Part shown: piece by piece, positions 14,066 to 27,363 of the stretch
How the letters are laid out: each line of letters opens with the position of its first letter
How positions within the stretch are numbered: position 1 is the first letter of the stretch
Notes under the pieces: model-generated
What the model saw: the letters and a program-made list of their open reading frames with translations, nothing else
Told to the model about the DNA's origin: nothing
Database searches by the model: none
Origin: Raja brachyura
Taxonomy: Eukaryota
Direction of reading: 5' to 3'
DNA: 64,000 nucleotides
NCBI GenBank assembly: GCA_963514005.1
Contig: OY740786.1
Span: 90,396,001-90,460,000, forward strand
Program-made: the position numbers and the translations under genes

Positions 14066-14279
14066 GTATCCTTTTGGTACCTAACCGAGCTTGAACAAAG
14101 TGGGGAAAGATATCGCCACGATTTAGCACGGTAACTTAATTTCGAAGCCCAGTAGAATTAGACTTAGATGATGCTTAGATACTTAGATAATCAATCGGTG
14201 AATTTGCTGTTTGATGCAAATTTTAGTTAAATGTAAGACAACGACAAGGTCATCCGCATACCAACTCAAGTCTGGATGT

Positions 14280-14499
14280 TTAAGAATGAACTGCAGATGC
14301 TGGGAAAATCGAAGGTAGACAAAAATGCTGGAGAAACTTGGGTTACACAAAAAGCTGGAGAAACTCAGCGGGTGCAGCAGCATCTAAGGAGCGAAGGAGA
14401 TAGGCGACGTTTCGGGTCGAGACCCTTCTTCAGGTTAACTTCCTTCGCTCCATAGGTGCCGTCTCACCCGCTGAGTTTATCCAGCATTGTTGTCTACCT
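14280..14499. mobile_element. Penelope-derived fold-back element, 14-bp TSD
   Basis: TCAAGTCTGGATGT at 14266-14279 and 14500-14513. Minus-strand core CTGAAGA-AGGGTCTCGACCC-GAAACGTC. Confidence 0.88.
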
Positions 14500-14994
14500 T
14501 CAAGTCTGGATGTAACTTACAGCCTTTTATTTATTTTTTCTAATAAATAAATAATGATCCCATTCATCTTGTAATAATGGACCGAAATGTTGGTGGACTG
14601 GTGTTGAATATGTTGAATTAAATGGCCAGCCGATCTGAGGCGGCTCAATGTAATTAGAGCTTATATGTTTGGGACGTTGACTCGAGCGGAATCTGATATT
14701 AAGTTGTCCCAGCAGTGGTATTCGGCGATGCAGTTAACGATACTTTAAAGTACCTGCTTTAAGCCGTTCATGACTCTGAAGCATGCACAAATTATGGGGA
14801 ATTATTATTTTTGAGGTATGACCCTCAGACACTCTTCTTTAGACAGTTAAGGTATTGTCAGTATTCTGGAGGTGAATTTGATTGTTGATATTTTACTGTG
14901 CTGAGGGGGGACCTTTGGAGATCCTGTTTTTGGGATTGTGTTTAGTCTCGGGGCATTCAACAATAGACCCTCTGGAAAATAGTCAAAAATATCC

Positions 14995-15175
14995 AAAGCT
15001 TCCTATAATCCAAAGACGTACAGCTATGTAGGTTAATTGGCTGGTAAATGTGAAGAAATGTCTCTAGTGTACGTAAGATCGTGTTAATATGCGGGGATCG
15101 CTGGACAACGTCTGGGACGGCCCAGATCCGGTGGGCCGAATGGCCTGTTTCCGCGCTGTATCTCTAATATAAACT
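14995..15175 (+). mobile_element. HE1-like SINE 3' part
   Basis: CCAAAGACGTACAG..TGTAGGTTAATTGG...GGGCCGAA(T)GGCCTGTTTCCGCGCTGTATCTCTAA (CR1-derived tail). Confidence 0.8.
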
Positions 15176-15396
15176 ATAAACGATTGAAGGTAGCATGAAT
15201 TGAAAGGGTCCCTCGATTTGTTTTGTGAAGTTACATATGATGATCATGTTCATTATCCTTCATGATGGACCAAATCCACACTTTGATTCAGGAAGCAGCA
15301 ATTCAGTATGGGGGAGGAGCATGTCAAGGATGGTTGTGAATATGTTTTCAAGCACATGAGAAATGGACATTAAGGTTTGCTAAAAACAACTAACAG

Positions 15397-15780
15397 CAGT
15401 CTGAAGAACGGTCTCGACCCGAAAAACATTGCCTATTTCATAGTAACATAGAAAACAGGAGAAGGCCATTCGATTGATTGTGATCATGGCTGATCGTCCC
15501 CAATCAATAACCCGTGCCTGCCTTCTCCCCACATCCCTTCATTCCACTAGCCCCTAGAGCTCGATCTAACTCTCTCTTAAATCCATCCAGTGATTTGGCT
15601 TCCACTGCCCTCTGTGGCAGGGACTTCCACAAATTCACAACTCTCTGGGTGAAAACGTTTTTTCTCACCTCACCTCACCTCACCTCATTTCCTTTGCTCC
15701 ATAGATGCTGCTTCACCCGCTGAGTTTCTCCAGCATTTTTGTCTAGCTTCGATTTTCCAGCATCTGCAGTTCCTTAAACA
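15397..15780 (+). mobile_element. Penelope-derived short element interrupted by a CR1 3' fragment (~15440-15670, minus)
   Basis: CAGTCTGAAGAACGGTCTCGACCCGAAA..., then the CR1 tail, then ...CAGCATCTGCAGTTCCTTAAACA. Confidence 0.8.
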
Positions 15781-16044
15781 ACATCTTCTAGTTTAGTCAC
15801 ACTAAGATTAAGCTGTTATCACCTTGGAAAATCGTGAGGAAACTAGGTTTCAAGGTTTCAAGGTCAGTTTATTGTCACATGTACCAATTAAGGTACAGTG
15901 AAATTCGAATTACCATTCAACTACAGTTGAACACATATGTTTTAGAGGAAAGCTGGTAATCTCTCCTGGTGAAATTGATATTTTTAATTTAGGAACAAAA
16001 TAACCGTTACATGCCAACAACAAATATTTTGAGAGATTTTTTTT

Positions 16045-23799: not shown

Positions 23800-23839
23800 T
23801 ATATTACTAAAACTCTTCTCTTGTTTGTGTGTATATATA

Positions 23840-24379
23840 CAGTGGCTTGCAAAAGTTTTCATACCCCTTGAACTTTTCCACATTTTGTCACGTTACAACC
23901 ACAAACGTAAATGTATTTTATTGGGATTTTATGTGATAGATCAACACAAAGTGGCACATAATTGTGAAGTGGAAGGAAAATGATACATGGTTTTCAAATC
24001 TTTTTACAAATAAAAAACTGAAAAGTGTGGCGTGCAAAAGTATTTAGCCCCCTTTACTTTGATACCCCTAAATAAAATCCAGTGCAACCAATTGCCTTCA
24101 GAAGTCACCTAATTAGTAAATAGAGTCCACTTGGGTGTAATCTAATCTCAGTATAAATACAGCTGTTCTGTGAAGGCTTCAGAGGTTTGTTAGAGAACAT
24201 TAGTGAACAAACAGCATCATGAAGCCCAAGGAACACACCAGACAGGTCAGGGATAAAGTTGTGGAGAAGTTTAAAGCAGGGTTAGGTTATAAAAAAATAT
24301 CCCAAGCTATGAACATCTCACAGAGCACTGTTCAATTCATCATCCGAAAATGGAAAGAGTATGGCACAACTGCAAACCT
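23840..24379 (+). mobile_element. 5' fragment of Tc1 family B inserted in a Helitron
   Basis: Near-identical to 51841-52381 (left TIR plus the first ~53 codons). Starts after TATATA and is abruptly truncated. Confidence 0.92.
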
Positions 24380-25064
24380 GTGTGTGTGATCTGGGCACAA
24401 TCTGGTTAATTCCTATCTTCTTCCAAACGCTAGGCCACAGCCTTCCCATTTTCACACATTCTACTCACATTTTCCCTGGAGGCGATAAAACTCTTTCCGT
24501 CACATTCCCACCTATATTTCCGACCTTTTAATCATTTAAAGTTTTAAAAACAGCCCGAAAACGCACCCATTTCGGAAAAAAAAAACAAATTATGTCACAA
24601 TGCGCTCACAAGGCAGGACAGGACACTCCGGGAGGGAGGGGCACTCCAGTGCTCGTGCGGCTGCTGCCGACGCCTGATACCTGGTGGTGAGGGTGGTGCC
24701 GCGGGCCCTGGCTGGAGCCTGGTGCTCGAGCTGGAGTGAGAGCCGAGCCCGGGGCTTAGGATGGGGCCGTGACCGGGGCCGAGAAAGAAGCTGCCTCTGG
24801 AACCAAGGACAAGCCTGGGTCCATGGTCAGGGACGAGCCCGCAGATGAAGTTGTAGCCTGCACGATAGCCCAGGCAGCGGCCGAGCTGGCGGCTGGGGTC
24901 TACAACCAGGGCCGGGCCGAGTACGAGAACCAGGCCGAGTTCCAGGCCATGACTATGACCTGGGTAGGTCCTGGGGCAGGGAATGGGAGTCAGAGGAGGA
25001 GGGAGTAGGGTGGTAGAGGGAGATGAGGGTGGGGGGGGTGGCTGTGGAGGAGGGAGATGCCCCG

Positions 25065-25543
25065 TCCCTATCTACCCTCAGTCCCACCCTCTCCACCCCC
25101 TCCCTCTCTATCCCCCTCCCTCTCTAACCCCCTCCCTCTCTCTCTAACCCCCTCCCACTCTACCCTCCCTCCCCCAACTATCCTTCTCCCTCTACTCCCT
25201 CTCTCTCTACCCCCTCCCTCTCTGCCCCTATTCCTCTCTACACCTCTCCCCCTCCATCTATCCTCCCCTCCCTCTCTACCCCTCCCCCTCACTCTCTACC
25301 CCTCCCTCTCCCTCTTCCTCCCTCTCCCTCTCTACCTCCCTCCCTACCCCCGTCCTCCTCCCTTTCTACCCACCTCCCTCTCTACCCCCCTCCCTCCTCT
25401 CTACCCCCCCCTCCCTCTCTACCACCCCTCCCTCTCTACCCCCCCTCCCTCTCTACCCCCCCTCCCTCTCTACCCCCCCTCCCTCTCTACCACCCCTCCC
25501 TCCTCTCTACCCCCCCTCCCTCTCTACCACCACTCCCTCTCTA
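25065..25543. repeat. C/T-rich low-complexity array (CCCTCCCTCTCTAC-like)
   Basis: Directly visible. It explains the Pro/Leu/Ser and Gly/Arg ORFs in the track. Confidence 0.9.
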
Positions 25544-25744
25544 GGGATTGAAGAGGGAGGGTGAAGAGGTAGAGATGGGAGTGCTGGGGGATGAGGAGAA
25601 ATGAGACGTGCCTGCACAGTTGGGTGCTATGCATGAGTGGTGCAATATTGCATTGGGGGAACGGATGAGTGGTGGAATCTTGCGTTGGGGGACCAGACCC
25701 AACGCAATGGGTCTGCACTTGGTCTAGTTCTATCTAAAACTGAA

Positions 25745-26750
25745 GCCACTTTCAAGGAACTATGTACCTGCTCTCCTAGATTTCACTGTGAATGTCCTGT
25801 CTTGGTTTGACATCCCAAAATGCAACACCTCACACTTATCTGCAATAAACTCCATTAACCATTCCACAGTTCACTCGCCCAGCTGATCAAGATCTTGCTG
25901 TAATTTTTGATAACCATCTCAGCTAGTCAATCCGATTTGTAAGCCAGATCTCCCACATATAACACCATGATGACTATCCCAATCAGCCCGTCTATCCAAA
26001 TGCATATATATCTTATCCCTCAGAATCCTCTCCATTAACTTGTCTATCACAGATGTTAGGCTCACAGGTCTTTAGTTCGCAGGCTTTGCCTTGCAGCCCT
26101 TTTGTAAATATTAGCCACCCACTAGTCTTCCGGTGCTTCACTTGTGTCTAATGATATTCATATATCTCTGCAATTTCTTCTCCAGCTTTCACCAGTCTGC
26201 TCGGATACATGTGATCAAGTCTGGGAGATTTACCTACCTTCATATGTCCTAGAACTTCCATATCCTCCTTGACTGTAATACCAACTGTCCTAAAGACATC
26301 ACCATTAACTATCCTAAGTTTCTTGGTCTTCATGTCTTTCCCAATGGTAAAGAAATAGAGGAGGAAATGTTAATTGAGAACCTTGCCCATCTCTCATGGG
26401 TCCACACAGAGATGGTGCTTTGGTTTCTGAGGGGTCCTATTCTCCCTAATAACCCTCTTTGACTTAATGTACTTACAAAAGTATCTTTGGATTCTCCTTA
26501 ATATTATCTCCAGAACTATCTCCTGCCCCCTCTTTTCCCTCTGGATTTCCTTCTTAAGTATGTTCCTCTGAAACCAAAACTTTTCCAGAGATACATTTAA
26601 TCCAGTTTGCCTGTACCCGCCCCATGCCTCTTTTTAATTTCCTGACAAGAGCCTTAATTTCTATCGTTATCGAGGCTTCCTTACTCCCATCTGCCATGCC
26701 ATTCACTTTAATAGGAACATGCATGCCATGAAGTTGTCTTATTTTTAAAA
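25745..26750 (-). mobile_element. Old CR1 ORF2 fragments
   Basis: KVGKSPRLDHMYP..L...GEEIAE and other degenerate CR1 motifs. Confidence 0.7.
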
Positions 26751-27363
26751 GCATGATTTACATCAACATAGTCTTCTTCAGTGTTGTAACTCTTTTTATG
26801 ACTAGATCACCAGTGTGAAATTTGATTTTTGATTTTCTCTTGCAAATTTTAAATTAAAATTGTTTAAGTAAATCTAGCAAGAATATAAACCTAATAATCG
26901 TTCATAGTGCTTTAGTACTGGTCTTCCCCAGGTTTCAAATGCCTGAAAATATAAAGGAGCGTTTGGGAGACCAGTATGATAGATGGGGATGTATTTGCCA
27001 ACAGCTGTGGGCCTGCACGCATCTTTTGCCAGATGGGAACAAGACTTTTCCGTGTACTTTCTCTTCCCACCCGCCTGCCCCAACTCAAGCAGAGCCCTGG
27101 AAATTGGATCTGGTGTAAAGCTGATCAAATTTGTATATGAAACTGAGTAATTAGAAACATTAGAGGCAAATATACATTTCTATACAAGTATATAAAGCAC
27201 CTGTTTAAAGCAGTTTGCATGTGAAGTTGTGCATTTGAAAAATAATGTTCCATATCTTGGGTCGAATACATTTATTATTTAAACCAAAGCAAAATTTATT
27301 GATTTGTCCCATGTTTCGCATGTTGTTATTTCTGCATTTATTCTTAACTCCTGGCCTTTGTAG

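What the first reader, a model, noticed from the sequence alone, without database searches (positions are those of the whole stretch)
14066..27363. 13.3-kb U12-type first intron after a 10-codon first coding exon in CEP126
Seen: the donor is GTATCCTTTT, matching the U12 consensus RTATCCTTT. The acceptor has TTCTTAAC with the branch A about 16 nt from the AG and only a weak pyrimidine tract. Splicing there is the only way I found to put a CpG-island ATG in frame with exon 2 (MQMQRTASYS-NIKTQLE). Established: minor introns are rare, often rate-limiting and found in several ciliary/centrosomal genes. Inference: translation of this centrosomal protein depends on the minor spliceosome, and the intron tolerates more than 15 TE insertions. 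Gene predictors could easily mis-start the gene at exon 2.
Basis: partly seen in the sequence, partly recalled or inferred. Interest (0 to 1): 0.7.

Follow-up and report, generated by a model that had tools for sequence, protein, structure and literature searches.

The report
Known minor intron in skate CEP126
The first intron of the centrosome gene CEP126 in this skate-like fish is real and carries the signals of the rare 'minor' splicing class, but it is very likely the same intron already catalogued in human and mouse CEP126, and its length and repeat load are ordinary for this genome.

Summary
Intron 14066-27363 (13,298 nt, phase 2) has a U12 donor (GTATCCTTT) and a branch site (TTCTTAAC, 27341-27348). 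Spliced contigs from 4 of 4 runs of a close relative (3 samples, one study, RNA status guessed) join 14065 directly to 27364; no other donor appeared. The gene is CEP126, and RefSeq models of related skates, rays and most sharks already begin with this exon's peptide. The genome holds U11 and U12 genes; its U11 pairs with this donor (-8.2 kcal/mol) and with none of seven other donors of the gene. It is not new. Supplements of four papers list the human CEP126 minor intron, one also the mouse intron, with a branch site identical at 11 of 12 letters. The length is mid-range for this gene (2.5-18.8 kb), and repeat cover (36-41%, 18 blocks) does not exceed the genome background (median 47%). A rate-limiting role is untested. 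The small gains are a likely date of at least the jawed-vertebrate ancestor and a leader with five upstream ATGs.

The parts
13540..14130 (.). CpG island over the promoter and first exon
   Evidence: GC 0.60, CpG obs/exp 1.11
13747..14065 (+). CEP126 exon 1, minimum extent (leader of at least 290 nt with five upstream ATGs, then 29 coding nt)
   Evidence: X1 contig letters 1-314 lie on 13747-14065; X2 from 13791, X4 from 13893; uORFs. Contigs cannot show the true start.
14037..14065 (+). Coding part of exon 1 (MQMQRTASY plus two bases of a split Ser codon)
   Evidence: tblastn of P0003 residues 1-10 at 14037-14066, 100% identical
14066..14074 (+). U12-type 5' splice site GTATCCTTT
   Evidence: duplex with the genome's own U11 5' end, -8.2 kcal/mol; the same 12-mer scores 85.1 (mouse) and 90.4 (human) as the Cul2/CUL2 donor in the MIDB table
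14066..27363 (+). Intron 1, GT-AG U12-type, 13,298 nt, phase 2, with 18 interspersed-repeat blocks covering 36-41%
27341..27348 (+). U12-type branch site TTCTTAAC (branch A predicted at 27346 or 27347)
   Evidence: 11 of 12 letters equal to the human and mouse CEP126 branch 12-mer scored 86.4
27361..27363 (+). 3' splice site TAG
27364..27483 (+). CEP126 exon 2 (120 nt), single copy in the genome
38670..38821 (+). CEP126 exon 3
   Evidence: tblastn with P0089; the loose end behind 27483 equals its start but for one letter
41998..42109 (+). CEP126 exon 4
   Evidence: tblastn, boundaries
50912..51119 (+). CEP126 exon 5; further exons lie beyond the window
   Evidence: tblastn; PF15352 matches at G000:C6:90465874 and 90487289

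Best explanation
This is intron 1 of CEP126, a GT-AG intron with U12-type signals that is removed exactly between 14065 and 27364, likely by the minor spliceosome, and is very likely the orthologue of the minor intron catalogued in human and mouse CEP126. Shown: the boundaries, the spliced junction in a close relative, the reading frame, the consensus signals, and U11 and U12 genes in the genome. Inferred from the established mechanism: U11 pairs with the donor, U12 pairs with the branch site and bulges out one of its two A's, and the intron is excised to join the start codon to exon 2, so full-length protein needs minor splicing. Inferred: the intron was inherited from at least the jawed-vertebrate ancestor and grew by gathering the same repeats as the rest of this 2.7-Gb genome, with no special selection on its size.
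For: Signals and frame. Junction in 4 of 4 runs; the three of these that were laid on exon 1 have no cover at 14098-14219, while a contig of run X6 runs unspliced over 13449-14305 with 0 differences. Single genomic copy of exon 2, so no retrocopy in G000. U11 and U12 genes found; U11 duplex -8.2 against +0.1 to -2.8 for seven other donors; RTATCCT at 1 of 8 donors of the gene. Human and mouse CEP126 are listed as minor-intron genes with donor GTATCCTT and a branch 12-mer one letter away (PMC6717393 supplements 1 and 8); the human entry recurs in PMC9992838, PMC6800510 and PMC11347168. Elephant and mink CEP126 align without gaps across the junction, with Leu opposite the split Ser, which fits the exon tail CCT given by MIDB as a phase-2 Leu codon. 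125 of 172 alignable homologues have 7-14 residues before the exon-2 part.
Against: The runs come from a relative, one study, assembled contigs only, with RNA status guessed; the tool flags X3 as probably DNA. No intronIC or matrix score was computed; scores are look-ups of identical or near-identical 12-mers. The U12 duplex energy does not single out this intron (-7.8, while U2 intron 7 gives -8.3). The branch site ends 15 nt from the exon, longer than the 11-13 nt optimum in PMC3584512. The human exon structure was not seen, so same position is inferred. Which spliceosome acts was not tested.
Confidence: 0.95

Rival explanations
1. The intron has U12-like signals but is spliced partly or wholly by the major spliceosome (a hybrid or converting intron).
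For: GT-AG ends; a pyrimidine stretch (71%) as good as several U2 introns of the gene; branch-to-acceptor distance slightly above the optimum.
Against: The donor lacks A or G at +4 and G at +5 of the U2 consensus (consensus recalled) and pairs with U11 at -8.2 kcal/mol; donor and branch site are kept nearly letter for letter in human and mouse.
Confidence: 0.03
2. The intron's size, first position and repeat load are selected as a rate-limiting throttle on CEP126, working together with upstream ORFs.
For: Slow minor splicing has been proposed as rate-limiting (PMC3584512, passages); CEP126 is needed for cilium formation (PMC4293463, abstract); five upstream ATGs lie in the leader. It can hold alongside the best explanation.
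Against: Length is mid-range for the gene; repeat cover is not above background; the orthologue is 3,782 nt in mouse and 7,228 nt in human; minor and major intron lengths scale together across species (PMC10639083, passages); no contig showed retention at 14098-14219, though contigs drop rare forms.
Confidence: 0.12
3. The true first exon is elsewhere, or the protein starts in exon 2, and the motif at 14066 is chance.
For: RTATCCT occurs three more times inside the intron; some database models start differently (P0001, P0006, P0018, P0019, P0033).
Against: All four contigs that enter exon 2 come from 14065; the exon-1 peptide is conserved in rays, sharks, gar, bichir, caecilians and frogs.
Confidence: 0.01

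Closest known systems
Human and mouse CEP126 (KIAA1377) minor intron: human chr11:101915413-101922640, 7,228 nt; mouse chr9:8130316-8134097, 3,782 nt (PMC6717393 supplements 1 and 8; human entry also in supplements of PMC6800510, PMC9992838 and PMC11347168)
   Same: Same gene; donor GTATCCTT; branch 12-mer identical at 11 of 12 letters; inferred same codon position and phase 2.
   Different: 13,298 nt here; the coding part of exon 1 is 10 codons here against 43 residues before the junction in elephant and mink proteins; the leader here has five upstream ATGs.
GT-AG subtype of U12-type (minor) introns (Turunen et al., PMC3584512, passages)
   Same: Conserved 5' splice site and branch site with two candidate A's, close to the acceptor; not phase 0, as is usual for minor introns (PMC10639083, passages).
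   Different: Branch site 15 nt from the exon against an 11-13 nt optimum; longer than most human minor introns (8 of 188 rows seen are longer, median 1,230 nt).
RefSeq CEP126 X1 models of Amblyraja radiata (XP_032878248.1) and Leucoraja erinacea (XP_055493327.1)
   Same: Both begin with the same 10-residue exon-1 peptide but for one residue and continue with an exon-2 peptide 100% identical to this one for P0089.

Membership tests
U12-type (minor) intron | Conserved 5' splice site RTATCCTTT | tested here: met
   GTATCCTTTT at 14066; 4 in 680 kb by chance; identical 12-mer scored 85.1 and 90.4 in MIDB
U12-type (minor) intron | U12 branch site close to the 3' splice site | tested here: met
   TTCTTAAC at 27341-27348; 11 of 12 letters equal to the catalogued human and mouse site; 15 nt from the exon, slightly above the optimum
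U12-type (minor) intron | No distinct polypyrimidine tract | tested here: inconclusive
   71% pyrimidine at -17..-4, inside the 57-93% range of the gene's U2 introns
U12-type (minor) intron | Both ends are used together in spliced RNA | tested here: met
   4 of 4 runs of a close relative join 14065 to 27364
U12-type (minor) intron | Minor snRNAs present and complementary | tested here: met
   U11 (113.9 bits) and U12 (142.7 bits) in G000; U11 duplex specific to this donor, U12 duplex energy not specific; U4atac and U6atac were not searched
U12-type (minor) intron | Score above threshold in intronIC or MIDB matrices | not testable with these tools
   No classifier on hand; only look-ups of matching 12-mers against the thresholds quoted
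U12-type (minor) intron | Excision depends on the minor spliceosome | not testable with these tools
   Needs knockdown or snRNA blocking
CEP126 (PF15352, K1377) | K1377 family match and orthology to named CEP126 proteins | tested here: met
   Two PF15352 matches just past the window, over cut-off; large exon 91% identical to skate CEP126; ten exon blocks of P0089 map in order. Exon 2 alone gave no Pfam match.
Orthologue of the human/mouse CEP126 minor intron | Same codon position and phase | tested here: inconclusive
   Fits: ungapped protein alignment across the junction and MIDB exon tail CCT. The human gene structure itself was not seen.

The most novel reading that the evidence does not exclude
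CEP126 output in skates is throttled twice at its 5' end: a slow minor intron placed after only ten codons, kept since the jawed-vertebrate ancestor, and a leader with five upstream ORFs, so that minor-spliceosome activity and re-initiation together set the supply of a cilium-building protein.
Probability: 0.1. Interest if true: 0.4.

Novelty: already known. Interest (0 to 1): 0.12.

Why it matters
Little. It confirms in a cartilaginous fish a minor intron that is on published lists of ciliary minor-intron genes, and so dates it to at least the jawed-vertebrate ancestor if the position is shared. By my count of the columns, the one chondrichthyan row of the orthology table in PMC11347168 gives only 'protein_ortholog' for this intron, so this may fill a small gap there; the neighbouring column reads 'minor', so a miscount by one would remove even that. 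It also explains why a few database models of CEP126 have wrong N-termini.

Tried and rejected
Pfam scan of exon 2 alone: 0 families. Full-text searches: 'CEP126' with 'minor intron' found 0 papers, with 'U12' 2 unrelated papers; the intron appears only in supplements. CEP126 was absent from the 3 supplements of PMC13216214; one of the supplement files of PMC6800510 could not be searched and may hold retention data. No run was on record as RNA, so expression level and tissue were not judged. Retrocopy as the source of the spliced contigs: exon 2 has one match in G000; the relative's genome was not searched. Unusual length or repeat load: rejected. Upstream neighbour for synteny: 78 non-repeat ORFs of 45 aa or more in 1-13746 gave no host-gene family; one hAT remnant passed its cut-off and three weak hits did not. 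Rfam over 12000-28500: 0 matches. U12 duplex energy as a discriminator: failed. One donor (intron 7) was placed one base off and corrected. The last two introns of the gene were not measured. A search for papers on minor introns with transposons or first introns listed 15, none read.
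Full report
Observation. The donor at 14066 reads GTATCCTTTT and the intron ends in TAG at 27363, 13,298 nt in all. The branch motif TTCTTAAC lies at 27341-27348, with its A's at -18 and -17. The ATG at 14037 gives 29 coding nt before the donor (phase 2). An in-frame stop at 13989 excludes an earlier in-frame start, and of 14 ATGs in 13401-14065 only 14037 and 14043 are open to the donor. The region is a CpG island (GC 0.60, obs/exp 1.11). 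In 34 random 10-kb loci of the same genome, read on both strands, GTATCCTTT occurs 4 times in 680 kb, and 16 of 20,867 YAG sites have [TC]CTTAAC at -25..-7. Both signals at the two ends of one intron are far beyond chance.

Gene. PF15352 (K1377) matches twice just past the window. The large exon is 91% identical to skate CEP126, the top of 86 hits. Ten exon blocks of P0089 map in order across the window and the next 40 kb. RefSeq X1 models of Amblyraja radiata and Leucoraja erinacea, and models of Rhinoraja, Pristis, Hypanus, Mobula and most sharks, start with the exon-1 peptide. Of 191 proteins held at that point, 172 could be aligned at the N-terminus (19 dropped for low score); 125 have 7-14 residues before the exon-2 part, 35 have more, 5 have fewer, and 7 start inside it. 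A short first coding exon is thus the common state in fishes and amphibians.

Junction. No run was on record as RNA. I laid four guessed-RNA runs of one relative (3 samples, one study) on exon 2. Each has one contig covering exactly 27364-27483; the 30 letters before it equal window 14036-14065, and those after it match the start of exon 3 but for one letter. On exon 1, the same 589-nt X1 contig covers 13747-14065, X2 covers 13791-14065 and X4 13893-14065, none has cover at 14098-14219, and a contig of run X6 runs unspliced over 13449-14305 with no difference. Exon 2 has one copy in G000. Limits: these are contigs of a relative, they drop rare isoforms, and the tool marks X3 as probably DNA.

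Class. The defining features of U12 introns are the 5' splice site and branch site (PMC3584512, passages). RTATCCT stands at 1 of 8 donors measured in this gene. The genome holds U11 and U12 genes. Its U11 5' end pairs with this donor at -8.2 kcal/mol and with the other seven at +0.1 to -2.8; the U12 duplex (-7.8) does not discriminate, since intron 7 gives -8.3. I could not run intronIC. The donor 12-mer is identical to the Cul2/CUL2 donor, scored 85.1 and 90.4 in the MIDB table, where the thresholds are 50 for the donor and 65 for the branch site. The pyrimidine content (71%) is not distinctive, and a loose YTTRAY also occurs in U2 intron 8.

What is known. PMC6717393 (supplements 1 and 8 in part, main-text passages) lists CEP126 as a minor-intron gene in mouse and human, with donor GTATCCTT and a branch 12-mer one letter from the one here, lengths 3,782 and 7,228 nt. 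The human entry recurs in supplements of PMC9992838, where it is marked U12 and ciliary, PMC6800510 and PMC11347168; of these three I saw only supplement rows. Elephant and mink CEP126 align without gaps across the junction with Leu opposite the split Ser, which fits the MIDB exon tail CCT as a phase-2 Leu codon. Orthology of the intron is therefore inferred, not shown. In Table S8 of PMC11347168 the Callorhinchus cell for this intron reads 'protein_ortholog' by my count from the row end, with 'minor' in the next column, so that reading is uncertain. Two full-text searches found no paper that discusses the intron in its main text. The online MIDB and IAOD databases could not be queried.

Size and repeats. 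The other seven introns measured are 2,517-18,775 nt, so 13.3 kb is ordinary here. Of 188 human minor introns in the part of the table that I read (part 7 of 9), 8 are longer. Against 340 kb of random genome, intron 1 has 18 repeat blocks covering 36% (41% with a 450-kb reference), against 44%, 5% and 58% for introns 2-4 and a median of 47% (range 17-80%) for 34 random loci. These are lower bounds, and the blocks were not classified. Minor and major intron lengths scale together across species (PMC10639083, passages).

Mechanism. Shown: boundaries, junction, frame, signals, snRNA genes. Inferred from the known pathway: U11/U12 recognise the two ends and the minor spliceosome joins the start codon to exon 2; without this no full-length CEP126, a protein needed for cilium formation (PMC4293463, abstract), can be made from this start. 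A rate-limiting role is a general hypothesis with no evidence at this locus. The leader holds five upstream ATGs whose ORFs all end before 14037; their use is untested.

Annotation. P0001 starts out of frame in exon 2 because it uses an acceptor 19 nt upstream of exon 3. The main models of the nearest skates are right.

Verdict. Real, well supported and already known in kind and, very likely, in place. Interest 0.12.

Noticed in passing
window 13770-13987 (+): Five upstream ATGs in the transcribed leader (13770, 13813, 13841, 13896, 13913), giving ORFs of 23, 27, 48, 8 and 24 codons that all end before the main ATG; the first has A at -3 and G at +4. The relative's contigs differ by a 1-nt and a 4-nt deletion in this stretch.
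   Followed up: partly
window 13553-13708: About five degenerate copies of a 32-bp GC-rich unit with a CAGTGCGCAGACTC core, just upstream of the transcribed leader; possibly promoter elements.
   Followed up: no
window 38651 (+): A second AG 19 nt upstream of the exon-3 acceptor; the L. erinacea X2 model (P0001) appears to use it, which shifts the frame and makes the model start at an out-of-frame ATG at 27396.
   Followed up: partly
window 19077, 21796, 26260 (+): Three more RTATCCT motifs inside intron 1, one reading ATATCCTTTG; none is joined to exon 2 in the contigs.
   Followed up: partly
window 11005-11289 (-): Remnant of a hAT transposase dimerisation domain (PF05699, E 0.0002).
   Followed up: no
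window 14275-14507 and 13427-13487: Copies of a very high-copy short repeat, 210 nt downstream of the U12 donor and upstream of the promoter.
   Followed up: no
L043, L044, L045, L046: One full U11 gene (G000:C21), two weaker U11 copies (C17) and one U12 gene (C55) in this genome.
   Followed up: partly
window 60639-61382: A low-complexity array that translates to QVKSSQ-like repeats on the minus strand, inside intron 5.
   Followed up: no
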